A DNA stretch of 64,000 nt from positions 183,799 through 247,798 of IMG/VR virus record IMGVR_UViG_3300031994_000001; one strand, given 5' to 3'. Below the pieces are notes generated by a model that was given only the letters and a program-made list of their open reading frames with translations, had not been told where the DNA came from and searched no databases. The position numbers were made by a program, and so were the translations under genes. Shown piece by piece: positions 12,433 through 43,014 of this stretch. Within the stretch, counting starts at the first letter, position 1. Each line of letters opens with the position of its first letter. The stretch is from a virus. Taxonomy: Duplodnaviria; Heunggongvirae; Uroviricota; Caudoviricetes.

Positions 12433-12894
12433 ATGAAAGAAGAAATTATGAATGTCAAGGTGTTCATCGCCGATGACGGAAAGAAATTCCTTGACGAAGA
12501 CGAGTGCAAGAGATACGACAAGATAATCAAGAACATTCGCTATTTCTTGGTTAAGCACACACCCGACTTGACCGAAACGGGTCTGTTTAAGGAAATCAGC
12601 GTTGTCGCTGTTTATTCCGAAAACGGATACCATCGTGAAATCGTTGAGCGTTGGTGCGTTGAAGAATGGAAATACTGCATTCTCGGCGTATCTGTGCAGG
12701 GTTACGGATTCCAACCGCACTTCGAGATTATCGAAGGCACGGGTGATGACATCGTGAAAACCCGTTGGAACAACTATGTCTATGACCAAAGGGTTGATTC
12801 CTTCAGATATAAGAAAAAGTTGTTCCTATCCCCGATACGTGTTGAGGGATTCCCGAACAACACGGACTATTACGAAAAATGGTTCAAACTCTGA
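12433..12894 (+). CDS. Hypothetical protein
   Basis: FIADDGKKFLDEDECKRY motif common in phage proteins. Confidence 0.7.
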   Translation: MKEEIMNVKVFIADDGKKFLDEDECKRYDKIIKNIRYFLVKHTPDLTETGLFKEISVVAVYSENGYHREIVERWCVEEWKYCILGVSVQGYGFQPHFEIIEGTGDDIVKTRWNNYVYDQRVDSFRYKKKLFLSPIRVEGFPNNTDYYEKWFKL

Positions 12895-12927
12895 TAAAAA
12901 AATTTTTTATTCGACATTTTTCGGAAA

Positions 12928-12940
12928 TTTTTATTATATT
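12928..12940 (+). promoter_or_regulatory. Phage promoter-like motif TTTTTATTATATT upstream of tRNA-like RNA A
   Basis: Motif recurs 11 times, always intergenic and upstream of a gene. Confidence 0.7.
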
Positions 12941-12968
12941 GTATTGTAAAGTTCTTTGAAAACCCATA

Positions 12969-13134
12969 AGGTGTGTAGCATAAACAATGCGCGGCGTGCG
13001 TCTATTTTTTTTTCGGTTCTTGTCTTAAAGAACACAGCAGCAAAACTCACTATCATCTGTATTTAATAAATTTCAATCAAAATCATTCCGCGAGACGCTT
13101 TGCCGATATGCGGGTCACAACCCCGCCACACCTT
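12969..13134 (+). ncRNA. tRNA-scaffolded ncRNA A (degenerate D and T loops, large anticodon-arm insert)
   Basis: Acceptor AGGTGTG/CACACCT; D stem GCAT/ATGC; stem CGGCG/TGCCG extended by GCGTCT/AGACGC; T stem GCGGG/CCCGC with 7-nt loop; insert has GTTCTT/AAGAAC hairpin and AAGAA-N5-CAGCA. Confidence 0.75.
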
Positions 13135-13185
13135 TGTTTTGAATCCCTTGTATTTCTACTCATAATAATTATTTTTGTTGAAGAA

Positions 13186-13219
13186 AAAAGGAAGCCCGTT
13201 TGGACTTCCTTTTTCTTTT
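13186..13219. terminator. Bidirectional intrinsic terminator
   Basis: AAAAGGAAG...CTTCCTTTT hairpin between ncRNA A (+) and the ligase gene (-). Confidence 0.7.
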
Positions 13220-13236
13220 TGTGTTGTCGGCATAAG

Positions 13237-14589
13237 TTACACTTCCCTGCCGTTCTCGTCATACACACACTTGACTGTCGGGAATCGCATACTCGTTCCA
13301 CCTTTTTGATTCTTGGTTTCCTCGAAATACTTGACGCTTATTGTGCGACCGAGGATTTCTTCGGGGTGTTCGGCATAGTATATCCTCTGTTGTTTGTTGA
13401 ACCCGCTTCCGACACCTACACGATTGCCCTTGTAGTCAATCACCACATTGGTAAGAACGTGCCGCACAACCTGCTTGCCGTCCTCAACCATACGCATATC
13501 GCCGAGTTCGTAGTCAATCACGGTGAACTCATCGTCCAGAAAATCCTTTACTTTAAGCAGGTTGTTCGTGCGCTTGCCCTCGTAGGCGACATCGCGGCGA
13601 ATCATAAGACCCTCCCATTTCTTCGCCCTTGCCTCGTCATAGAGCGTGTTGAACACTTCGTTGCTTTCGACTTTGGTCTGCTTCAGCATCTTTATATTGT
13701 TGCCGACAATTTCCGCATTGTCCAAACAGAACTGCCGCAGGTCTTCCAACCTCAACGAAAGATACCTTCCGCCGCCGCAATACAGTTCTTCCAATGTGAG
13801 TTTGTCGAACACTTGGTAGCAGGGATTAGGAATTGTGTAGTCTTTTTTCCTAACGAGTTTTACAATGCTTATGAAATCCTCGTTGCCGAGCAGGTCAACT
13901 ATGCAGAGTTCACCGTCAAGAACGAAGTTGTCTTCGGGACATTTTTCAAGGATTCGTTTCAGCACGCCGAGTGTAAGGAACTCCTTTTTCTGTCTTGAAT
14001 AGAATTTGACCAATCCGTTGCGCTTTATCGCTATGCACCTCACGCCGTCACATTTGCGGGATGCCCACCAATCCTGCGTGGTGAAGTCAACCTTTTCGGC
14101 AATGTCGAAATACTTGTTTGCCAAAGCGACACCGAAATTCTCGTTGATTGTGTCGAACCCTTTGAGGTCGAATACTGTTTGGATTGTGTTCGCAGCCACA
14201 CCGCAGCCGAAGTCCTTGTCTATGATGTCAAGGAAAAGGTTGGAGACCGCAAGGTCTTTTTTGCGCAGGGCGTTCCGTATCGAAGCACAAATCTCAACAG
14301 CATAGTTGCCAGTTATTTTTCTCTCCGAAAGTGATTCGAGTACATACATAATGTTCTCATCGGAAACGGTCTCGGCGCATCTGTCGGACTTGCATTTCAG
14401 AATGTTGTCTGCTGACACATAGAATCTGACGTGGGGGTTGGCAATGAAGTTGAACACTCTCATAGCGAAGTCGCTGTCCGCAGTTTTCTTGTATTGTTCA
14501 AGCATTTCACGCTTTTTGTTCAGCGATGAAGTTTCCATTAGATGTTGCTGCAAATCAGAGAGTTTCTTGAATTGTACCAAATTTTCCAT
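13237..14589 (-). CDS. lig: ATP-dependent DNA ligase
   Basis: RKCDGVRC (KxDG), VLDGEL, QVFD, EGLMIR, LLKVK, and OB-domain VGSGF...RFP. Confidence 0.92.
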   Translation of the reverse strand: MENLVQFKKLSDLQQHLMETSSLNKKREMLEQYKKTADSDFAMRVFNFIANPHVRFYVSADNILKCKSDRCAETVSDENIMYVLESLSERKITGNYAVEICASIRNALRKKDLAVSNLFLDIIDKDFGCGVAANTIQTVFDLKGFDTINENFGVALANKYFDIAEKVDFTTQDWWASRKCDGVRCIAIKRNGLVKFYSRQKKEFLTLGVLKRILEKCPEDNFVLDGELCIVDLLGNEDFISIVKLVRKKDYTIPNPCYQVFDKLTLEELYCGGGRYLSLRLEDLRQFCLDNAEIVGNNIKMLKQTKVESNEVFNTLYDEARAKKWEGLMIRRDVAYEGKRTNNLLKVKDFLDDEFTVIDYELGDMRMVEDGKQVVRHVLTNVVIDYKGNRVGVGSGFNKQQRIYYAEHPEEILGRTISVKYFEETKNQKGGTSMRFPTVKCVYDENGREV

Positions 14590-16969: not shown

Positions 16970-17983
16970 ATGATTAGCATTATAACCCCCGCACACAAGG
17001 TGCTGCCGTGGTACAACGCTCGGCTCATAAACGTGTGCAGCCAAGACTCTGACGAGTGGGAGTGGATTATCCTTGACAACTCGAAGGACGGATGCGTTAA
17101 AGAATATGTTGACCGTTTCTTTACTGAAATGCAGGGTGTGAATTACTTGCATTGCAGGTCTAAAATCAAAGTCTATCACGAGCCGCAGTTTTCTGACATA
17201 CCGCTTGTTGACGGTAAAATGGGCAAGATGTGCAATCGAATGCTTGAACTCGCAACGTGCGATGATGACGGATTCTTTATGCGTCTTGACTTTGACGATT
17301 TTCTGTGTGACGGGAGTATCCGTATAATTAACAAGGCTATCCGTATGAATCCCGACAGCGAATTTATCACGGGTCAAATAGGCGATTGGCTTGTTATGAC
17401 AAAGAACGGGGATTTTGACTATTGCGATTTCAGCGATGCGTTCAACCACGACCCCGATGACTTGCTTGAAGTTATGCGGTGCGAGAAAATCTGCGACCCG
17501 TCATTGATTGACGAATACAAAGCAAGAATACAAAAATACGGGCTGACAAGAAAACTTGTTAGCGCACCCTGCCGTGTGACATTACCATATACCGAATTTA
17601 ATTTTTTTCGAAACGAAGTGCAGACTTTGGGCGCGGGTTGGGATATGTTCGGCGGAGTTGAGCATCCCCTTTGTTTGAAGAAAAGCGCGTTTCTGAAAAA
17701 GATAGGCGGATTCGTAACGAACAATTCAAAAGAGGATTTGGTGAGCCTACTCTATGTGACGAGATTCGAGAACATTGTCTATATAGACAACGCACTTTAC
17801 CTCCGCTGTGTAGTATGCAGCAAACGCGGAAGATTCTATTATATGGACAGCGGCACTATTGAGGTATGCAACCAAGCAAACAAGCAGATAGAGTGGGATA
17901 TAATCACTTCCGAACTTAAAGAGAATTACAGCAGGCTCGGATTGTTCGGGCTTGTAGTACCAAAACGCATTAAATTCAACTAA
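16970..17983 (+). CDS. GT-A fold (GT2-like) glycosyltransferase 1
   Basis: ISIITPAH start, WEWIILDNSKDG, RLDFDD (DxD). Confidence 0.75.
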   Translation: MISIITPAHKVLPWYNARLINVCSQDSDEWEWIILDNSKDGCVKEYVDRFFTEMQGVNYLHCRSKIKVYHEPQFSDIPLVDGKMGKMCNRMLELATCDDDGFFMRLDFDDFLCDGSIRIINKAIRMNPDSEFITGQIGDWLVMTKNGDFDYCDFSDAFNHDPDDLLEVMRCEKICDPSLIDEYKARIQKYGLTRKLVSAPCRVTLPYTEFNFFRNEVQTLGAGWDMFGGVEHPLCLKKSAFLKKIGGFVTNNSKEDLVSLLYVTRFENIVYIDNALYLRCVVCSKRGRFYYMDSGTIEVCNQANKQIEWDIITSELKENYSRLGLFGLVVPKRIKFN

Positions 17984-27348: not shown

Positions 27349-27388
27349 AAGAAGTTTTCAGCATTTGTATAAGTAATCAAACTTCTTG
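27349..27388 (+). promoter_or_regulatory. 5'-leader RNA hairpin carrying AAGAA-N5-CAGCA
   Basis: AAGAAGTTT (27349-57) pairs with AAACTTCTT (27379-87); CAGCA at 27359-63; same determinants as the tRNA-like RNA inserts. Confidence 0.65.
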
Positions 27389-27411
27389 CAAACCAAAAAA
27401 ATCGTATCAGT

Positions 27412-28932
27412 ATGATTGAACAAATGAAAGAAACATTGAACTCGGACGGCTACAATGTCGCCTACTCCGAAAACGGCGCAAAAATGTACGCAACAACGGG
27501 CAAGAACCTGCTTGACTTGTTCTTCAAAATCCCGATGTTCCGTAAATTCAAGGCAGGCAAACTGCCAAACGGTTCTAACCTTCAGAACTTGTTTATGCCC
27601 GCCCTCACCGAGAACCGCGAACTCTTTGCGAAGTTTATGTTCTACCTGCGCGATGTCCGTGGCGGCGTTGGTGAACGTGATATGTTCCGCAATATGTTCT
27701 TGTGGTTCTCCGACAACTATCCGCAGGAGGCAACGAAACTCATCGGATTCATTCCCGAATTTGGTCGTTGGGACGACCTTGTGTTCATCGCTGTAAACAC
27801 CCGCAGCAACGAAGTCTGCGAGGCAGCGTTCAACATCATCAAAGCCCAACTCGAAGCCGACAAGACTTCCGACCATCCTTCCTTGCTCGCCAAGTGGATG
27901 CCCTCTATCAACGCGGGCAACAAGGCGAAGAGCGATGCGAAGTTCGTCATTTCCAAACTCGGTATCATCAGCGCAGATTACCGTAAGATGCTCGCCGAAC
28001 TCCGTAAGAAAATTGACATTGTGGAGACCCACATTGCGTCAAAGACCTACGGTGAAATTGACTACGAGAAAGTGCCTTCCGTGGCTAACACCCGTTACGC
28101 CAACTTGTTCTTGAAATACGATGAGGACAGACGCAGGGCATACCTCGGCGCACTTGTCAAGGGCGAAGCCAAAATCAACGCTTCCGCCGTGTTCCCGCAC
28201 GACATTTGGAAGAAACTGCACGAGAGCAACTGCGACAGAACCACTGTCAACGAAATGTGGAAGAATCTTCCCGACTTCGTTAAGGGAGACACGGGTACGC
28301 TCGTTGTCCGTGACGGTTCGGGTTCTATGACTGTCCGTCTGCCGAACTCAACAACCCAAGTGCTTGACATCGCTTCCGCTTTGAGCGTGTACTTTGCCGA
28401 GCGTATGACGGGCGAGTTCAAGGGCAAGTTCATCACCTTCAGTTCAAACCCGCAGTTGGTTGACATTTCGGGTGCAAAGAACCTCTACGAAGCATACAGC
28501 ATTCTGCGCTCCTACAACGATTGCAGCAACACTGACATCGAAAAGACGTTTGACCTTGTGCTTGACACCGCAGTCAGACATCAAATCCCGCAGAGCGAAC
28601 TGCCGAAGCAACTCCTCATTATCTCCGATATGGAGTTCGACTACGCGCACTCCGTGGGCTACTACTCTCAAAGAGTGGACGATGACACGCTGTTCACCAC
28701 AATCGCCAAGAAGTACGAGAAAGCGGGCTACCAACTTCCGAAACTCGTGTTTTGGAATGTCAACTCCCGCACTGGTGCCATCCCAATGACCCAAAATCCC
28801 AACGGCGTAATCTTGGTTGCGGGTTACTCACCTGCAATCTGCAAGATGGTTCTCTCCGAAGAGACCGACCCGTACTTGGCTCTTGTCAAGGTGCTGATGG
28901 GCGAGCGTTATTCTCAAATCACATTAGGATAG
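27412..28932 (+). CDS. DUF2828-family TROVE/Ro60-like protein with C-terminal VWA domain
   Basis: SENGA...LDLFF, LRDVRGG.GER, FGRWDDL, LLAKWMPS, IDYEKVPS, MIDAS DGSGSM, IISDMEFD, VFWNVNS, GYSP. Confidence 0.85.
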   Translation: MIEQMKETLNSDGYNVAYSENGAKMYATTGKNLLDLFFKIPMFRKFKAGKLPNGSNLQNLFMPALTENRELFAKFMFYLRDVRGGVGERDMFRNMFLWFSDNYPQEATKLIGFIPEFGRWDDLVFIAVNTRSNEVCEAAFNIIKAQLEADKTSDHPSLLAKWMPSINAGNKAKSDAKFVISKLGIISADYRKMLAELRKKIDIVETHIASKTYGEIDYEKVPSVANTRYANLFLKYDEDRRRAYLGALVKGEAKINASAVFPHDIWKKLHESNCDRTTVNEMWKNLPDFVKGDTGTLVVRDGSGSMTVRLPNSTTQVLDIASALSVYFAERMTGEFKGKFITFSSNPQLVDISGAKNLYEAYSILRSYNDCSNTDIEKTFDLVLDTAVRHQIPQSELPKQLLIISDMEFDYAHSVGYYSQRVDDDTLFTTIAKKYEKAGYQLPKLVFWNVNSRTGAIPMTQNPNGVILVAGYSPAICKMVLSEETDPYLALVKVLMGERYSQITLG

Positions 28933-28936
28933 TGCT

Positions 28937-29347
28937 ATGGGATACATTATCGTAACTGCGATTGTTGCTTTTTGGGTGGGTGTGATTGTGGGCTACGCAA
29001 TCGCCCCCGCCTTAAAAAAGCAAAACGAGATTGACCGACAAATCGAAGAATTTGTTGAATCTGACGGTTCTTGCGAGGACAACAATGACAACGATGAGCA
29101 GCCGCAGTTGAAATCGGCGCAAGTCAATGACGGCAAGTTTGAAATCGGCGATATTGTTATGAAGGACTTCGCCATCGAAAATCCTTTTGCACAAGACAGT
29201 TGTATGCTGATTACAAACAAGCGGCGCAATGAAAAGGGTGTTATGTACTATGAGTATATGTTTTGCGACAGAGACGGCAGAAGTACGGGTATGATAAGGT
29301 ACGGCGACACTCTTGACAGATGCACAAAAGTCGGTCATAAAAACTAA
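28937..29347 (+). CDS. Hypothetical membrane protein
   Basis: N-terminal TM helix. Confidence 0.7.
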   Translation: MGYIIVTAIVAFWVGVIVGYAIAPALKKQNEIDRQIEEFVESDGSCEDNNDNDEQPQLKSAQVNDGKFEIGDIVMKDFAIENPFAQDSCMLITNKRRNEKGVMYYEYMFCDRDGRSTGMIRYGDTLDRCTKVGHKN

Positions 29348-29385
29348 TATACACCATTCTTCACATTTATTCATAATCATTTTCC

Positions 29386-29422
29386 AATCGGGGTTGCAAG
29401 CAGTCAAGCAATCCCGATTTTT
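29386..29422 (+). terminator. Intrinsic terminator-like hairpin
   Basis: AATCGGGGTTGC...GCAATCCCGATT followed by TTT. Confidence 0.65.
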
Positions 29423-29430
29423 ATAAGCAG

Positions 29431-30111
29431 ATGAAACATTACGATTCGATAAACAGAGTGCAGGACGATGGATTCCTGCTTGGCAAGAGCGTGTGGGCGT
29501 TCAACAAATTGGACGGTCAGAACTTCGCTGTCAAATACAATCCGAAGAAAAACATATACGATTCATTCGGCAGCAGGAACAGAATGGTTGACGAGAATGA
29601 CGAGCAGTTTGGCTGGGCTGTGCGGCATTTCAAGGAATCACTGATACCGAATGTACTGTCGGAACTTGTAAAGGCAAATAAGGGCAAAAACGGCGTGTTT
29701 GCAGGCGTTGACGAGATAACATTCTTCTTTGAATGGTACGGGGAACATTCATTCGCAGGCAGGCACGACCCGTCAGACATACTCCGTCTGTCTCTGATTG
29801 ACGTGTTCCTCAAAAAGAAAGGCTACATTGAGCCTAAACCGTACTATGACATATTCTGCAAAGACGATAGGATTGAAACACCCGAACTCGTATTCAAGGG
29901 CATTTTGACAAACTCATTCATACAAGAGATACGCGACAACGATTGGACGAAAGCGGATTGTTTATACCCTATGGTGAAAGAGGGTGTCGTGTGCCGCTCG
30001 TCATCTCTGCTGAAAGGTCAGCGTATGCCGAAAGTGAAGTTCAAGACCCAATGGTGGCTTGACCGCTTGCACGAACTCTACACAGAAGAAGAGTGCAAAC
30101 TCCTCGAATAA
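29431..30111 (+). CDS. Rnl2-like RNA ligase (adenylation domain only)
   Basis: NKLDGQN (motif I), FFEWYG (III), LIDV (IIIa), KEGVV (IV), KVKFKT (V). Confidence 0.7.
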   Translation: MKHYDSINRVQDDGFLLGKSVWAFNKLDGQNFAVKYNPKKNIYDSFGSRNRMVDENDEQFGWAVRHFKESLIPNVLSELVKANKGKNGVFAGVDEITFFFEWYGEHSFAGRHDPSDILRLSLIDVFLKKKGYIEPKPYYDIFCKDDRIETPELVFKGILTNSFIQEIRDNDWTKADCLYPMVKEGVVCRSSSLLKGQRMPKVKFKTQWWLDRLHELYTEEECKLLE

Positions 30112-39428: not shown

Positions 39429-41015
39429 ATGAAGGAAATCTTTTCAAAGTCAGAAAATTTCAAGCAGGAATATTCTGCAACAATCGTAAGGGTCGGGGAA
39501 CTCAAGGACATTGAGAACTCCGACAACTTGAAGCAAACCATCATTGACGGATTCAGCGTTGTCGTCAACAAGAACGATGTCAAGGAGGGCGACTATATGA
39601 TTTACTGCAAGAACGAGACCGAATTGAACTCGGAGTACCTTGCCGTGAACAATATGTACGAAATCGGCGAGCGTCACCTTAACGCAAACTGTGTTGAGGT
39701 TGAGAAGTTGATTGCTGACGGCAAAACCGATGAGGCGAAGAAAATGGTCGGCTACTTCAACAAGAACGGTCGTGTCAAGATGATTCGTCTGCGCGGCTGT
39801 CCGTCTATGGGCGTTCTTATGCGTTTGGTGAGTTTCATCAATTGGGACGGCGCATTGGCTGATGTCAATCTCCAAGACTATGTTCACTACGACAGCAACG
39901 GCAACTTCGTTCCATTCGACTTCGACACCGTGAACGGCAAACTGTTCATCAAGGCATACGTGCCGAAAATCAACCCTTGCAGAAGCGGTGGCGGAAGCGG
40001 CGGCGGAAAGAAGAAGGACAAGTCAAAGAAGTTCGACCGAATGATTGAGGGCGAATGGGCGTTCCACTATGACACCAACCAACTCAACTCTAATATGTGG
40101 AGACTGTCTCCCGAAGACGTTGTGTATATCTCAACCAAGGTACACGGCACATCAATCTGTCTCGGCAACATTCTTGTCAAGAAGCCCACATTGCTTAACA
40201 AGTTCCGCGACTTCCTCAACTCATTCAAGGACAAGAAAATCAGCAAGTACGAGCGTCAGTTGAAGCGCACCGAGGACGATTTGCTGAAACTTGAACTCCA
40301 AAAGAAAATCGCAGTCGTTGACAACCGCAAGATTCGCAAGTTCGATACGGAATACTACAATGTGTATTCCTCACGCACGGTCATCAAGAACCAATACATC
40401 AACAAGCAGGTCAACAGCGGTTTCTACTCAACCGACATTTGGGGCGAGTACAACGAAATGCTGAAGGGCAAGATTCCGCAGAACGTGTCAATCTACGGCG
40501 AGATTGTCGGCTACCTCACGGGTTCGTCAAAGATGATTCAGAAGAACTACGACTACGGCTGTGAGGTCGGCGAGAACAAACTTATGATTTACCGTGTCAA
40601 CGAAAAGTTGGAGGACGGCACTCACAAGGAGTACGAGATTGATGAGGTTATTGAGTTCACCAAGCAGTTGGTCGCCCAATACCCCGAAATCGAAAGCAGG
40701 ATTCTGCCGTACACTCTGCTGTTCCACGGCAAACTCTCCGACTTGTATCCGCAAGTTGACAGAGCAAACCATTGGAACGAGAATATCCTTGAGGAACTGA
40801 AGAACGACAAGGAGCATTTCGGTATGGAACTTGACGAGCCTATGTGCAAGAACAAAGTTCCACGCGAGGGTATCTGTCTGCGTATCGCAAACGACCCCGT
40901 TAAGGAGTGCTTCAAGTTGAAGTGCCTCTACTTCCTCGGCAAAGAAGCAGCCAATATTGACAAGGGTGAAGTCGATATCGAAATGGCTGACAACTACGGC
41001 GAGCAACAACAATAG
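39429..41015 (+). CDS. RNA ligase, DRB0094/Rnl2-like with N-terminal tRNA-binding OB-like domain
   Basis: IENSDNL...VKEGDYMIY OB region; TKVHGTS (I), IYGEIVG (III), REGICLR (IV), FKLK (V). Confidence 0.85.
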   Translation: MKEIFSKSENFKQEYSATIVRVGELKDIENSDNLKQTIIDGFSVVVNKNDVKEGDYMIYCKNETELNSEYLAVNNMYEIGERHLNANCVEVEKLIADGKTDEAKKMVGYFNKNGRVKMIRLRGCPSMGVLMRLVSFINWDGALADVNLQDYVHYDSNGNFVPFDFDTVNGKLFIKAYVPKINPCRSGGGSGGGKKKDKSKKFDRMIEGEWAFHYDTNQLNSNMWRLSPEDVVYISTKVHGTSICLGNILVKKPTLLNKFRDFLNSFKDKKISKYERQLKRTEDDLLKLELQKKIAVVDNRKIRKFDTEYYNVYSSRTVIKNQYINKQVNSGFYSTDIWGEYNEMLKGKIPQNVSIYGEIVGYLTGSSKMIQKNYDYGCEVGENKLMIYRVNEKLEDGTHKEYEIDEVIEFTKQLVAQYPEIESRILPYTLLFHGKLSDLYPQVDRANHWNENILEELKNDKEHFGMELDEPMCKNKVPREGICLRIANDPVKECFKLKCLYFLGKEAANIDKGEVDIEMADNYGEQQQ

Positions 41016-41030
41016 TGCTTAACGCACAGC

Positions 41031-41148
41031 GGGCGTGTGGCTGAATTGGTAAAGGCAATTAAGTCACAAAACGGTTCTCGAAAGAGAATACAGCAGCAAC
41101 TTATACAAACTCACTTATCGTATGGCGGTTCGAGTCCGCCCGCGTCCG
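41031..41148 (+). ncRNA. tRNA-scaffolded ncRNA B with 48-nt insert in place of the anticodon loop
   Basis: Acceptor GGGCGTG/CGCGTCC; D arm GCTGAATTGGTAAAGGC; stem TAAGT/ACTTA; T arm GGCGG-TTCGAGT-CCGCC; insert TTCTC-GAAA-GAGAA then N5-CAGCA. Confidence 0.85.
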
Positions 41149-41152
41149 CAAA

Positions 41153-41269
41153 GGGAGTGTGGCTGAACGGTTAGGCGGCGGGATGGCAGATAATTCTTGA
41201 ACAAGAACTTTACAGCAACATTAACCAAGGTAAACCCGTGAGATGGTGGTTCGACTCCATCCGCTCCCA
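41153..41269 (+). ncRNA. tRNA-scaffolded ncRNA C with 52-nt insert in place of the anticodon loop
   Basis: Acceptor GGGAGTG/CGCTCCC; D arm GCTGAACGGTTAGGC; stem GCGGG/CCCGT; T arm GGTGG-TTCGACT-CCATC; insert TTCTTG-AA-CAAGAA then CTTTA-CAGCA. Confidence 0.85.
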
Positions 41270-41284
41270 CAAAAATTTAGAAAT

Positions 41285-42127
41285 ATGCTATTCAACGTAG
41301 ATTATCACATAACTGACATTTGCAACCTCAACTGTGCGCATTGCAGTCATTACTGTCCGTTGGTGAAGTTTATACCAAACACAAAGCACAAGTCGGTTGA
41401 GCAGATTACGGCAGACTTGACGCTGCTGTCAAAGCACAAGGACTATTTGGAGAGATTGGGCATATTGGGCGGCGAACCCTGCCTGCACCCGCAACTCTCG
41501 AAGATATTGCGAATCGCCCGTGGGCTGTTTCCGAAAACAAAAATCGTTCTGACGACAAACGGAACGCTGACCGAGAAATACCTGCGGTGGAAAGATGCCA
41601 TTGAGGAAAACGACATACAACTTTGTGTAACGCTGTACCCGTTCAAAGGGGATGAACAATCCGCTTGGCAGAATTTCAAGAGAATATCCGACTTCATACC
41701 GTCAGTTGATGTTTGGGCATATCCTGCGCAGGTAGGTATGACATATCACCAACTCGCATACGAACCTTGCATAAAGGATGATATGGATAGAGAGGAAAAG
41801 GATAAACTCGAAAGCAAGGTGTTCGGCTGTTACAAGCGTTGGCAATGTAACCAACTCAAAGACGGCAAACTTTGGATATGCCACTATGCCGCTTACTTGG
41901 ACATACTTGAAAAGGCGTTTCCAAACAAGGTGAATATCGGTCAAGACGCACAATGCTATTTGGACTTGAACAATGACAATCTGACCGAGCAGGACATATA
42001 CCAATGGCAATGCGAGACATATCCAAAAATATGCAAGCACTGTACCGATGTCCAACACGGCGGCTATGACGGCGAAACAGAGCCTTGGTGCAGGACAAAG
42101 TATGACATTTCCGAATGGGTTGAATAA
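41285..42127 (+). CDS. Radical SAM protein
   Basis: CNLNCAHC (CxxxCxxC), LGGEP, TTNGT, extra C-terminal Cys cluster; start at ATG 41285. Confidence 0.88.
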   Translation: MLFNVDYHITDICNLNCAHCSHYCPLVKFIPNTKHKSVEQITADLTLLSKHKDYLERLGILGGEPCLHPQLSKILRIARGLFPKTKIVLTTNGTLTEKYLRWKDAIEENDIQLCVTLYPFKGDEQSAWQNFKRISDFIPSVDVWAYPAQVGMTYHQLAYEPCIKDDMDREEKDKLESKVFGCYKRWQCNQLKDGKLWICHYAAYLDILEKAFPNKVNIGQDAQCYLDLNNDNLTEQDIYQWQCETYPKICKHCTDVQHGGYDGETEPWCRTKYDISEWVE

Positions 42128-42138
42128 GCAATAAACTT

Positions 42139-42879
42139 ATGCGAAACAGAGAAGAACTTAATAGATGTATAGCGCAATCCTTAAAGGATGGTCGTTTTTA
42201 TGAAAGATTTGTTGAAGCCCAAATCAAAATAAATTTTCCGCAGTCTTTCTGCAAGCACATTGAGGATTTTGACGACAATATGGTGTTTAGAGTTGACGGC
42301 AAACAATGCGCAAAGACGGAAGTTGATGAAAAATACCACATTGATTTGTTTTTGAAATTTGACAAAAACAAAGAACGGATGCAGAGTATGGATGCCAAAT
42401 CTCCAAAACGCTTGAAACGCCAAGACACATCATATAATTATAACATAGAGTACGTTGAATTTACCAATGTGAATGGAGAAGAAGGATGGGTTCGTGGCAG
42501 AGCGGATTTTATCGCGTTTGTTACAAATGTTGACATAATCATAGTTAGCAGACATTGGCTTTTCGGATATTCAAATGATATTGTGAAACCAAACACACCC
42601 ATTTATATCGGTAACATAGCAGACAAATATCCAAATGACTATCTACATAAATTGAGCAGAAGAAAAGACCGAAAGGATTTGATTACTATATTAAGCACGG
42701 AAGAAATACGCAAAATTGCCAAAGAGCAAAATGGATTGATTATGCGATTTGACAAAAGCATTGATTGGAATCAAATTGACCAAATGAGAAAAAACGGTGA
42801 AGATGTGACTGAATTGCTTGATGTTGACGCGACTGTTATTGATTACAGAAAGACTGAATCTGTCGCAGAAGCATCATAA
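42139..42879 (+). CDS. PD-(D/E)xK-like nuclease (possible homing endonuclease)
   Basis: HIDL...MDAK catalytic-like pattern, VEF...GWVRG.ADFIAF; AT-rich relative to neighbours. Confidence 0.55.
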   Translation: MRNREELNRCIAQSLKDGRFYERFVEAQIKINFPQSFCKHIEDFDDNMVFRVDGKQCAKTEVDEKYHIDLFLKFDKNKERMQSMDAKSPKRLKRQDTSYNYNIEYVEFTNVNGEEGWVRGRADFIAFVTNVDIIIVSRHWLFGYSNDIVKPNTPIYIGNIADKYPNDYLHKLSRRKDRKDLITILSTEEIRKIAKEQNGLIMRFDKSIDWNQIDQMRKNGEDVTELLDVDATVIDYRKTESVAEAS

Positions 42880-42885
42880 ACAGCA

Positions 42886-43014
42886 GGACGTGTAGCCAAA
42901 TCGGTAAAGGCAGAGGAGCGCAAAAGTTTCTTGTAAAGAAACAATCAGCAACCATAGCAAAGAAAACCTCGCATACACATAGGTGTATTGGTGGTTCGAG
43001 TCCACCCGCGTCCA
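42886..43014 (+). ncRNA. tRNA-scaffolded ncRNA D (class II variable arm) with 50-nt insert in place of the anticodon loop
   Basis: Acceptor GGACGTG/CGCGTCC; D arm GCCAAATCGGTAAAGGC; stem GAGG/CCTC; variable arm ATACAC/GTGTAT; T arm GGTGG-TTCGAGT-CCACC; insert GTTTCTT-GTA-AAGAAAC and AAGAA-N5-CAGCA. Confidence 0.85.

What the first reader, a model, noticed from the sequence alone, without database searches (positions are those of the whole stretch)
12928..13219. A fourth, hidden tRNA-like RNA as a stand-alone transcription unit with coordinated loss of elbow nucleotides
Seen in sequence: 12969-13134 folds as a cloverleaf. It has a perfect 7-bp acceptor AGGTGTG/CACACCT, a 4-bp D stem, a 5-bp stem extended by GCGTCT/AGACGC, a 4-nt variable loop and a 5-bp T stem with 7-nt loop. 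The D loop (AAACA) lacks G18G19 and the T loop (TCACAAC) lacks TTCGA, so tRNA finders should miss it. Its ~100-nt insert keeps GTTCTT/AAGAAC plus AAGAA-CACAG-CAGCA and shares AAACTCAC with ncRNA B. It has its own promoter motif (12928-12940) and terminator (13186-13219). Inference: selection keeps the stems and the CAGCA module but not the tRNA elbow, which argues that the insert is the functional part.
Basis: partly seen in the sequence, partly recalled or inferred. Interest (0 to 1): 0.75.

Follow-up and report, generated by a model that had tools for sequence, protein, structure and literature searches.

The report
Elbow-less tRNA-shaped Y-like phage RNA
The flagged sequence is a real small RNA gene of a 413-kb rumen phage: a tRNA-shaped RNA without the tRNA "elbow" that carries the docking motif tied to the phage's Ro60-like protein, and one public RNA data set holds it with its two ends joined, so it may be circular.

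Summary
ARAGORN and Rfam both miss it.

It is one of seven RNAs in this phage that carry a 5-bp hairpin, 5 nt and CAGCAA. The TTCTY form of that motif occurs 6 times in the genome against 0 in shuffles, always in a tRNA-shaped scaffold.

Orthologues sit beside DNA-ligase genes 74-75% identical to ours. They keep all stems and the handle, with compensatory changes in 6 of 27 pairs. The D loop (5 or 6 nt) and T loop (7, 9 or 12 nt) vary freely.

A sheep-gut metatranscriptome holds a 203-nt contig in which 13138 joins back to 12966. That gives a 173-nt unit, without CCA and not cut at the RNase P position: either a circular RNA or a head-to-tail artefact.

The phage's DUF2828 protein is predicted to fold like Ro60. 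In 61 other phage loci the handle lies within 1 kb upstream of that gene (42 hits, 0 in the control).

Most likely this is a Y-RNA-like partner of that protein. Earlier notes of this scan describe the same handle family on at least 25 other genomes. I found no paper describing it.

The parts
12917..12940 (+). Phage promoter motif: TTTCGGAAA-type upstream element plus the TTTTTATTATATT core.
   Evidence: The core has 52 copies in the genome against 0-4 in shuffles, mostly 20-40 nt ahead of start codons. It is identical in all D orthologues. A sigma-70-like match TCGACA-18-TATATT also lies here.
12950..12963 (+). Leader strand of a leader-trailer helix below the acceptor stem. It is removed from the mature RNA.
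   Evidence: The MFE folds of all six precursors pair it with the trailer. Where type 1 has AAAAC paired with GUUUU, L229 and L242 have AAUAA paired with UUAUU, so two pairs are compensated.
12966..13138 (+). The RNA as found in a metatranscriptome: a 173-nt unit whose last base is joined to its first.
   Evidence: Run X17 holds a 203-nt contig (173 + k-1) made of 12978-13138 joined to 12966-13007, a joint that "goes back 173". No such joint appears in three DNA runs.
12969..12975 (+). Acceptor stem, 5' strand; pairs with 13127-13133.
   Evidence: In the orthologues two pairs changed on both sides (G-C to A-U, U-A to C-G).
12978..12990 (+). D arm: 4-bp stem GCAU/AUGC with loop AAACA, which lacks G18 G19.
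   Evidence: The stem is invariant. The loop is 5 nt in type 1 and 6 nt (AACAGA or AGCAGA) in type 2.
12992..13003 (+). Anticodon-like stem, 5' strand. The lower 5 bp pair with 13101-13105 and the upper 6 bp with 13093-13098.
   Evidence: Three of the 5 lower pairs changed on both sides. Type 2 has one uninterrupted 8-bp stem of different sequence. The upper extension tolerates a C-A mismatch in strain L232.
13016..13043 (+). The handle: hairpin GTTCTT-GTCTTA-AAGAAC, spacer, then CAGCAA (13038-13043).
   Evidence: 6 genome copies against 0 expected. The hairpin core, the 5-nt spacing and CAGCAA are invariant in the orthologues, while the loop and spacer letters vary.
13044..13092 (+). AT-rich segment of the insert. 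Its length is kept (47-53 nt) but its sequence is not.
   Evidence: All point differences among near-identical strains fall here or in the upper stem extension: 13051, 13059, 13068, 13091, 13094.
13110..13126 (+). T arm: invariant 5-bp stem GCGGG/CCCGC with loop TCACAAC, which lacks TTCGA.
   Evidence: The loop is 7 nt here, 9 nt in L229 and L242, and 12 nt in L226.
13136..13144 (+). Trailer strand of the leader-trailer helix. The 3' end of the RNA (13138) lies inside it.
13186..13219 (.). Hairpin with A and T runs on both sides: a terminator for the D transcript and for the convergent DNA-ligase gene.
   Evidence: The pig strain's A13204G turns a C-A mismatch into C-G. L229 repairs the same mismatch from the other strand.
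27412..28932 (+). Gene of the DUF2828/DUF7788 protein with a predicted Ro60 fold, the proposed protein partner. That it binds D is inferred, not shown.
   Evidence: Pfam. AlphaFold2 model with pLDDT 90.8. The top 13 Foldseek matches in the PDB are all Ro60/TROVE structures. The handle is enriched just upstream of this gene in 61 other phage loci.
27349..27389 (+). 5' leader of the Ro60-like gene: a 9-bp helix whose loop begins with CAGCA. It is a permuted copy of the handle and a candidate autoregulatory site.
   Evidence: The same arrangement occurs in G005, G002 and G001 and in the leaders of L249, L277 and L291.

Best explanation
D is a stand-alone non-coding RNA gene of a 413-kb rumen phage.

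Shown:
- It has its own copy of a common phage promoter.
- Its transcript folds into a tRNA-type four-way junction with tRNA connector lengths.
- In place of the anticodon loop it carries the hairpin-N5-CAGCAA handle shared by six other tRNA-shaped RNAs of this phage.
- A public RNA data set holds it as a discrete 173-nt unit (12966-13138). That unit has 3 extra nt at the 5' end, UUGUU in place of CCA at the 3' end, and the two ends joined.
- Orthologues keep the stems and the handle through compensatory changes, and let the D and T loops drift.

Inferred:
- The RNA descends from a tRNA but is no longer handled as one. It shows no RNase P-type 5' end and no CCA, which fits the lost elbow.
- It is cut out of a conserved leader-trailer helix. 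The cut geometry leaves a 2-nt 3' overhang, as RNase III would.
- Its ends are then sealed, perhaps by one of the phage's two ATP-dependent RNA ligases. The result would be an exonuclease-proof circle in which a 6-8-nt loop caps the acceptor stem.
- Through the handle it docks on the phage's Ro60-fold DUF2828 protein, as Y RNAs dock on Ro60. It would either regulate that ring's access to other RNAs or tether it to a partner.
For: Fold: the MFE is the cloverleaf, z = -3.3.

Family: the handle occurs 6 times against 0 expected, always inside a tRNA-like scaffold. A seventh copy has a covarying hairpin, ACCTC/GAGGT.

Orthologues: L226, L229 and L242 lie at the same site, between the ligase and the small-ORF block. 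Of 27 pairs, 96.9% of cells are paired, against 37-54% when the partners are slid. Six pairs changed on both sides.

RNA: the contig with the 13138-to-12966 joint is in an RNA run and not in three DNA runs. Its sequence carries no CCA.

Leader-trailer helix: present in all six precursor folds, with two compensated pairs.

Partner protein:
- AlphaFold2 model pLDDT 90.8; the top 13 PDB matches are all Ro60, including the phage phiLo Ro60 9KOP at E = 2e-9.
- In 61 phage loci, a generic "5-bp hairpin + N5 + CAGCAA" scan gives 42 hits in the 1 kb upstream of the gene on the same strand, 0-4 in every other 1-kb bin, and 0 in that bin of the reversed-sequence control (0-3 elsewhere).
- A permuted handle sits in the mRNA leaders of these genes.

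Ligases: a 226-aa RNA ligase lies 0.5 kb downstream of the Ro60-like gene, and a 528-aa RNA ligase lies directly upstream of the RNAs at 41031-41269.
Against: - No binding experiment exists. The Ro60-like gene is 14 kb from D, whereas in most other phages the handle RNAs lie directly upstream of it.
- The handle lacks the GNCGAA/CGAA motif of characterised Y RNAs (PMC4201824, PMC12135203), and Rfam's Y RNA models do not match.
- The joint comes from one assembled contig of one run. Reverse-transcriptase template switching on an abundant RNA, or ligation during library preparation, could produce it. Contig depth cannot show how common the joined form is.
- D is dispensable or recent. It is absent at this site in L189, L227 and L230 (ligase 72% identical), and in L231, which encodes the same ligase protein as D-bearing strains.
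- One phage with a Ro60-like gene (G006) has no recognisable handle.
Confidence: 0.6

Rival explanations
1. The RNA is linear in the cell. The head-to-tail joint is an artefact of reverse transcription (template switching between copies of an abundant RNA) or of library preparation. Positions 12966 and 13138 are then simply its processed 5' and 3' ends. The rest of the best explanation stands.
For: There is one contig from one run, and assembly keeps any word seen a few times, so a rare chimera could close the graph. A second contig shows many cDNA fragments ending at 12978, so reverse transcription on this RNA is uneven. If the enzyme added two untemplated A residues, they would pair with the terminal UU and yield exactly this joint (inference).
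Against: The joint is exact, with no letters between the two sides and no ambiguity (table 5). The two ends lie side by side at the base of a stem, a good ligase substrate. The phage encodes two RNA ligases.
Confidence: 0.4
2. D works independently of the Ro60-like protein. It could be a decoy or sponge for a host tRNA-binding or tRNA-cleaving defence factor, or for another RNA-binding protein that recognises the handle.
For: The window is rich in tRNA and RNA-repair genes: two RNA ligases and a radical SAM enzyme. D is 14 kb from the Ro60-like gene. A capped acceptor stem would resemble a stem-loop substrate.
Against: D has lost the elbow and anticodon loop that tRNA-directed enzymes read. 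The handle, its one invariant part, tracks the Ro60-like gene in position and strand across 61 loci and recurs in that gene's own mRNA leader.
Confidence: 0.12
3. D is a pre-tRNA whose insert is an intron, removed by a phage endonuclease and ligase to give a decoding tRNA.
For: The insert sits where tRNA introns sit, and RNA ligase genes are present. ARAGORN in intron mode can force anticodons onto some sister elements.
Against: - No 7-nt anticodon loop can be rebuilt.
- The D and T loops lack the nucleotides every decoding tRNA needs.
- The RNA contig contains the whole insert and no CCA.
- No bulge-helix-bulge motif fits the cut sites.
- In the orthologues the stem next to the insert changes length (5+6 bp against 8 bp).
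Confidence: 0.03
4. D is a decaying, functionless duplicate of one of the tRNA-shaped handle RNAs, transcribed only because it kept a promoter.
For: The elbow is lost, distribution among relatives is patchy, and one close strain (L231) lacks it.
Against: Compensatory changes in three helices, a handle that is invariant apart from its outermost pair, and conserved connector lengths across alleles whose neighbouring ligase is only 74% identical. The promoter and leader are conserved. The RNA is present in a metatranscriptome.
Confidence: 0.05

Closest known systems
YrlA-type bacterial and phage Y RNAs with Ro60/Rsr (Chen et al. 2014, PMC4201824; Thermus phage phiLo Yrl1/Yrl2 with phage Ro60, PMC12135203)
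   Same: A small, stable, tRNA-derived non-coding RNA in a genome that encodes a Ro60-fold ring protein. It has one protein-docking module plus a tRNA-like module. If the joint is real, the acceptor stem is closed by a loop, as in YrlA. An RNA ligase is encoded beside the Ro60-type gene, as in the Salmonella rsr-yrlBA-rtcBA operon (PMC7790460).
   Different: The docking motif is hairpin-N5-CAGCAA, not GNCGAA/CGAA in a bulged terminal stem. The protein belongs to DUF2828/DUF7788 and gives no Pfam TROVE hit. Gene order is that of a tRNA, with ends at the acceptor, not at the docking stem. D lacks the conserved T and D loops that define YrlA's tRNA mimicry. No Rfam match.
The tRNA-shaped CAGCAA-handle RNAs of large phages. 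They are unnamed. Members here: 41031-41148, 41153-41269 and 42886-43014, three in this genome's tRNA array, and those upstream of Ro60-like genes in other phages.
   Same: The same handle with the same 5-nt spacing at the same place in the cloverleaf, the same strand, and the same class of phage.
   Different: 30 of 32 distinct members beside Ro60-like genes elsewhere, and 6 of 7 in this genome, keep a canonical TTCRA T loop. The six others in this genome also keep the GG of the D loop. D lacks both. D has its own promoter, a leader-trailer processing helix and a roughly 50-nt extra AT-rich segment.
tRNA (Rfam RF00005)
   Same: Cloverleaf with tRNA connector lengths: 7-bp acceptor, 2 nt, 4-bp D stem, 1 nt, 5-bp stem, 4-nt variable loop, 5-bp T stem stacked on the acceptor.
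   Different: No anticodon loop, no G18 G19, no T54-Psi55-C56, no CCA in the RNA contig, a 5' end 3 nt upstream of position 1, and no model match.
Archaeal circular RNAs: bulge-helix-bulge-excised introns, and C/D box sRNAs circularised by an ATP-dependent RNA ligase (PMC9014305, PMC4797309)
   Same: A small structured RNA whose paired ends are joined by a ligase. Excision is from a helix formed by the flanks.
   Different: Bacterial phage context. No bulge-helix-bulge geometry at the cut sites. Circularity rests on a single contig.

Membership tests
tRNA (RF00005) | Score at or above the Rfam gathering threshold, or detection by ARAGORN | tested here: not met
   No tRNA hit on 12700-13400 even at E <= 10. 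ARAGORN finds 0 genes in the window.
tRNA (RF00005) | Cloverleaf with canonical stem and connector lengths | tested here: met
   The MFE structure is the cloverleaf, kept in the orthologues with covariation.
tRNA (RF00005) | Elbow nucleotides (G18 G19 with T54-Psi55-C56) and a 7-nt anticodon loop | tested here: not met
   D loop AAACA, T loop TCACAAC. In the orthologues the loops are 6 nt and 9 or 12 nt. The anticodon loop is replaced by about 100 nt.
tRNA (RF00005) | Mature ends at position +1 and at a 3' CCA | tested here: not met
   The RNA contig runs from 12966 (3 nt before the acceptor) to 13138 (UUGUU after the acceptor), with no CCA.
YrlA / Y RNA (Ro60 partner) | Ro60-binding motif GNCGAA(N)G or CGAA in the stem formed by the RNA's ends (PMC4201824, PMC12135203) | tested here: not met
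   The mature RNA 12966-13138 contains no CGAA or GNCGAA, and no Rfam Y RNA family matches.
YrlA / Y RNA (Ro60 partner) | A Ro60-type (TROVE) protein encoded in the same genome, usually adjacent | tested here: inconclusive
   A protein with a predicted Ro60 fold is encoded 14 kb away. It belongs to DUF2828/DUF7788 and gives no Pfam TROVE hit.
YrlA / Y RNA (Ro60 partner) | tRNA-like domain with conserved T and D loops | tested here: not met
   Both loops are degenerate and variable.
YrlA / Y RNA (Ro60 partner) | Physical binding to the Ro60-type protein | not testable with these tools
   Only genomic linkage was measured.
CAGCAA-handle tRNA-shaped phage RNAs (unnamed) | 5-bp or longer hairpin, 5 nt, then CAGCAA | tested here: met
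   13017-13043. It is one of 6 genome matches against 0 expected and is conserved in the orthologues.
CAGCAA-handle tRNA-shaped phage RNAs (unnamed) | Handle placed in the anticodon arm of a tRNA-type cloverleaf | tested here: met
CAGCAA-handle tRNA-shaped phage RNAs (unnamed) | Genome also encodes a DUF2828 Ro60-like protein | tested here: met
   27412-28932. The link is confirmed in 38 of 61 other loci and in G001 and G002.
Bulge-helix-bulge excised circular RNA | Two 3-nt bulges separated by a 4-bp helix at the cut sites | tested here: not met
   In the precursor fold the 3' cut lies inside a 5-bp helix and the 5' cut lies in a 4-nt/1-nt internal loop.

The most novel reading that the evidence does not exclude
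A bacteriophage makes a covalently circular, tRNA-derived Y-like RNA. The transcript would be cut from a leader-trailer helix and its ends sealed by a phage RNA ligase, giving an exonuclease-proof ring that docks through the CAGCAA handle on a Ro60-fold protein. Circularisation would also explain why earlier notes of this scan report genes of this RNA family in circularly permuted orders in other phages, since every permutation yields the same circle.
Probability: 0.3. Interest if true: 0.85.

Novelty: new variant of a known kind. Interest (0 to 1): 0.66.

Why it matters
Ro60 and its Y RNAs form an RNA quality-control system known from animals and bacteria. What the system does in phages is barely explored; only the phage phiLo system (PMC12135203) has been studied structurally. 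D belongs to a widespread phage RNA family with a different docking motif and a different branch of the protein family. I found no paper describing either.

D is a natural experiment within that family. It keeps the helices and the handle and discards the tRNA elbow, so the handle and the four-way junction, not tRNA mimicry, appear to be what selection sees. If the end-to-end joint is genuine, D would be, as far as I could find, the first phage-encoded circular tRNA-derived RNA. It would link the RNA ligases that large phages carry to making RNAs as well as repairing them. The sequence, ends and candidate partner are now defined precisely enough for direct bench tests.

Tried and rejected
- GenBank phage BLAST with the D region and with the two RNAs at 41031-41269 found nothing.
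- An exact-pattern scan of IMG/VR for the handle returned mostly chance hits in coding DNA. Only L045, L057, L063 and L091 were real.
- DNA-ligase loci from IMG/VR (9) and JGI metagenomes (37) contained no handle. The orthologues came only from exact-protein look-ups.
- G005, a relative whose Ro60-like protein is 83% identical, does not include the ligase region.
- A strict TTCTY/RAGAA regex found only 5 of 80 Ro60-like loci, because the hairpin covaries. I replaced it with a generic hairpin scan.
- On whole genomes the generic scan is noisy, with a similar number of control hits. I therefore used it only for its positional enrichment.
- A bulge-helix-bulge reading of the cut sites does not fit.
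- Rfam at gathering score found nothing on the D orthologues or on the region upstream of the tRNA array.
- PDB sequence searches and NCBIfam could not assign the two RNA ligases to a subfamily. Which ligase, if any, would close D is unknown.
- Literature searches for DUF2828, phage circular RNA and tRNA-like circles found no description.
- In run X17 the flanks (12562-12964 and 13151-13400) have no contig cover. Contig depth (180.6 for D against 2.9 for the one neighbouring contig) is only a rough hint of abundance.
- MAFFT placed a gap in the U run of the trailer, so the leader-trailer helix could not be counted with the count of structure pairs. I read it from the folds and the alignment.

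Full report
**Context.** The window is bases 183799-247798 of a 413-kb IMG/VR virus record from a sheep gut sample. Earlier notes of this scan call it a T4-related jumbo phage of Bacteroidota; I did not re-test that. The finding lies in a 342-nt gap between two convergent genes. One is a 153-aa ORF of unknown function (12433-12894, +). The other is an ATP-dependent DNA ligase (13237-14589, -), followed by NrdD.

**The observation.** RNAfold returns exactly that cloverleaf as MFE and centroid for 12969-13134: -42.7 kcal/mol, z = -3.3, and 0 of 200 shuffles fold as well. The opposite strand folds less distinctively (z = -2.5). ARAGORN finds no tRNA in the window. Rfam finds three tRNA-like genes with 48-59-nt inserts at 41031-41148, 41153-41269 and 42886-43014, but gives no RNA-family match over D's cloverleaf even at E <= 10; the only weak hits in that search centre on the terminator hairpin.

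**D belongs to a family.** All four RNAs share a 5-bp hairpin (TTCTY/RAGAA), exactly 5 nt, then CAGCAA.
- This pattern occurs 6 times in the 413-kb genome. All copies are on the + strand and inside cloverleaf scaffolds. Thirty shuffles and the reversed genome give 0.
- Two of the six lie in the phage's 36-tRNA array (genome 14979-15098 and 17346-17466).
- A seventh copy (17480-17602) has a covarying hairpin, ACCTC/GAGGT, with the same spacing.
- Other large phages carry the element too.
- Earlier notes of this scan describe the same CAGCAA handle on at least 25 other genomes and read it as the partner of a Ro60-like protein. I treated that as a lead and tested it, as described below.

**Orthologues and covariation.** IMG/VR and JGI ligase loci had no D. 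Exact-protein look-ups of ligase relatives did.
- L226 (ligase 74% identical), L229 (75%) and L242 have the same gene order and a 330-nt gap holding a diverged D.
- L232-L241 are near-identical strains.
- On the 6 distinct sequences (A2), the 27 pairs that can be placed in common columns are 96.9% paired, against 37-54% when the 3' partners are slid by 1-3 columns.
- Six pairs changed on both sides: two in the acceptor, three in the anticodon-like stem and one in the handle hairpin.
- These six sequences amount to two lineages, so this is about six independent compensatory events, not a statistic.
- The D and T stems, the connector lengths (UA, G, 4-nt variable loop) and the handle core are invariant.
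- The D loop is 5 or 6 nt and the T loop is 7, 9 or 12 nt, with unrelated sequence.
- Among near-identical strains, all point differences fall in the AT-rich part of the insert or in the upper stem extension.

By contrast, 30 of 32 distinct handle RNAs beside Ro60-like genes in other phages, and 6 of 7 in this genome, keep a canonical TTCRA T loop. The loss of the elbow is therefore real, specific to D and tolerated by selection.

**Transcription unit.** The core TTTTTATTATATT at 12928-12940 is one of 52 genome copies against 0-4 in shuffles. Most copies lie just ahead of genes and have a TTTCGGAWW element upstream. The promoter and the first 20 nt or so after it are identical in all D alleles. 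The terminator hairpin is kept, and a C-A mismatch in it is repaired by A13204G in a pig-gut strain and from the other strand in L229.

**The RNA itself.** Twenty public runs hold this stretch or part of it, four of them RNA. I laid one RNA run and three DNA runs on 12500-13400.
- The sheep-gut metatranscriptome X17 has a 203-nt contig made of 12978-13138 followed by 12966-13007.
- The joint (13138 to 12966, "goes back 173") is exact. The contig length equals 173 + 30, which is the signature of a closed 173-nt cycle in a k = 31 assembly graph.
- The three DNA runs cover the region colinearly without this joint.
- The unit therefore begins 3 nt before the acceptor and ends with UUGUU after it. 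It has no CCA and no RNase P-type 5' end. The cell does not finish it as a tRNA, which fits the missing elbow.
- A second contig shows the sequencing adapter abutting 12978, so many cDNA fragments end at tRNA position 10. This could be a reverse-transcription stop at a modified position 8 or 9, or a nick. I cannot tell which.

The joint means either a circular (or head-to-tail ligated) RNA, or template switching or ligation during library preparation. Contigs cannot give the share of joined molecules. I put a real circle at about 50%.

**Processing helix.** In all six precursors the MFE pairs the leader with the trailer just below the acceptor. Type 1 has AAAAC paired with GUUUU plus GUUC paired with GAAU. 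L229 and L242 have GAAUAA paired with UUAUUU plus AGUUC paired with GAACU, which compensates two pairs. The observed ends leave a 2-nt 3' overhang if the internal loop is read as stacked. That is the geometry of RNase III, which also leaves the 5'-phosphate and 3'-OH that ATP-dependent ligases need (inference). A bulge-helix-bulge reading does not fit.

**Candidate ligases.** The phage encodes two RNA ligases. One (29431-30111) lies 0.5 kb downstream of the Ro60-like gene. The other (39429-41015) lies directly upstream of the RNAs at 41031-41269.

**The partner.**
- The 506-aa protein at 27412-28932 matches Pfam DUF2828 and DUF7788 and phrog_850, "RNA-binding protein".
- An AlphaFold2 model built on 44 sequences has pLDDT 90.8 and pTM 0.90.
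- Its 13 best PDB matches are all Ro60/TROVE structures aligned over their full length: phage phiLo 9KOP (E = 2e-9, TM 0.56-0.60), Xenopus 1YVP and Deinococcus 2NVO. Everything below them is an isolated vWA domain.
- I fetched 80 phage loci around relatives of this protein and scanned the 61 with full 10-kb flanks for any 5-bp hairpin + N5 + CAGCAA. There are 42 hits in the 1 kb upstream on the gene's strand, 0-4 in every other 1-kb bin and 0 on the other strand in that bin. The reversed-sequence control gives 0 in that bin and 0-3 elsewhere. The hairpin covaries extensively.
- The mRNA leaders of these genes, including ours (27349-27389), hold a helix whose loop starts with CAGCA(A). This permuted handle suggests autoregulation.

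Binding is inferred, not shown. The motif differs from the GNCGAA/CGAA of known Y RNAs (PMC4201824, PMC12135203).

**Limits.**
- D is absent at the same site in relatives with 72% ligase identity (L189, L227, L230).
- It is also absent in L231, which encodes the same ligase protein as D-bearing strains. It is therefore lineage-restricted and not essential.
- Some strains carry a roughly 190-nt element with hairpin ends between D and the terminator.
- I found no publication on DUF2828 RNPs or on phage circular tRNA-like RNAs in the searchable library. That library covers open-access papers only.

**Verdict.** D is a genuine, expressed, structurally constrained non-coding RNA. It is an elbow-less member of a widespread phage family that most probably partners a Ro60-fold protein. 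There is a single-data-set indication that its ends are joined.

Noticed in passing
Genome G000:11391-12300 (outside the window; locus L003): Four tandem copies of the promoter motif, each followed about 11 nt later by a GTTCTTTGA-like motif (exact in two copies; also found in D's leader). Then comes a roughly 600-nt ORF-poor stretch just before the 36-tRNA array. No Rfam family matches it. It may be a large structured RNA.
   Followed up: partly
Between window 13158 and 13159 in strains L232/L233 and runs X3, X4; also L231: A roughly 190-nt insertion with two near-identical hairpin ends (ATTCCTCC...GGTGGAAT and ATTCCACC...GGTGGAAT), which looks like a miniature mobile element. L231 has this element but lacks D and the neighbouring small ORFs, so the gap is a recombination hot spot.
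   Followed up: partly
window 27349-27389: The 5' leader of the Ro60-like gene holds a 9-bp helix whose loop begins with CAGCA, a permuted handle. The same design is seen in G005, G002 and G001 and in the leaders of L249, L277 and L291. It is a candidate autoregulatory operator.
   Followed up: partly
window 27412-30111: The Ro60-like gene, a 136-aa ORF and a 226-aa RNA ligase lie in a row, and the order is the same in G005. This parallels the Salmonella rsr-yrlBA-rtcBA arrangement of Ro60 with an RNA ligase.
   Followed up: no
Genome G000:14979-15098, 17346-17466, 17480-17602: Three more handle-bearing tRNA-shaped genes sit inside the phage's tRNA array. The third has a covarying hairpin, ACCTC/GAGGT.
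   Followed up: partly
window 12976-12978: In RNA run X17 a contig shows the sequencing adapter abutting 12978, so many cDNA fragments end at tRNA position 10. This may be a reverse-transcription stop at a modified U8 or A9, or a nick.
   Followed up: no
Record G006 (IMGVR_UViG_3300028886_000035), around 250400-251893: A 281-kb phage with a Ro60-like gene (43% identical) in which neither the TTCTY handle nor a convincing generic handle was found. It may use a different RNA motif.
   Followed up: no
window 41243-42879: A radical SAM gene and a 246-aa ORF with no family match lie between the tRNA-shaped RNAs at 41153-41269 and 42886-43014. The radical SAM gene is in the same position in G005.
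   Followed up: no
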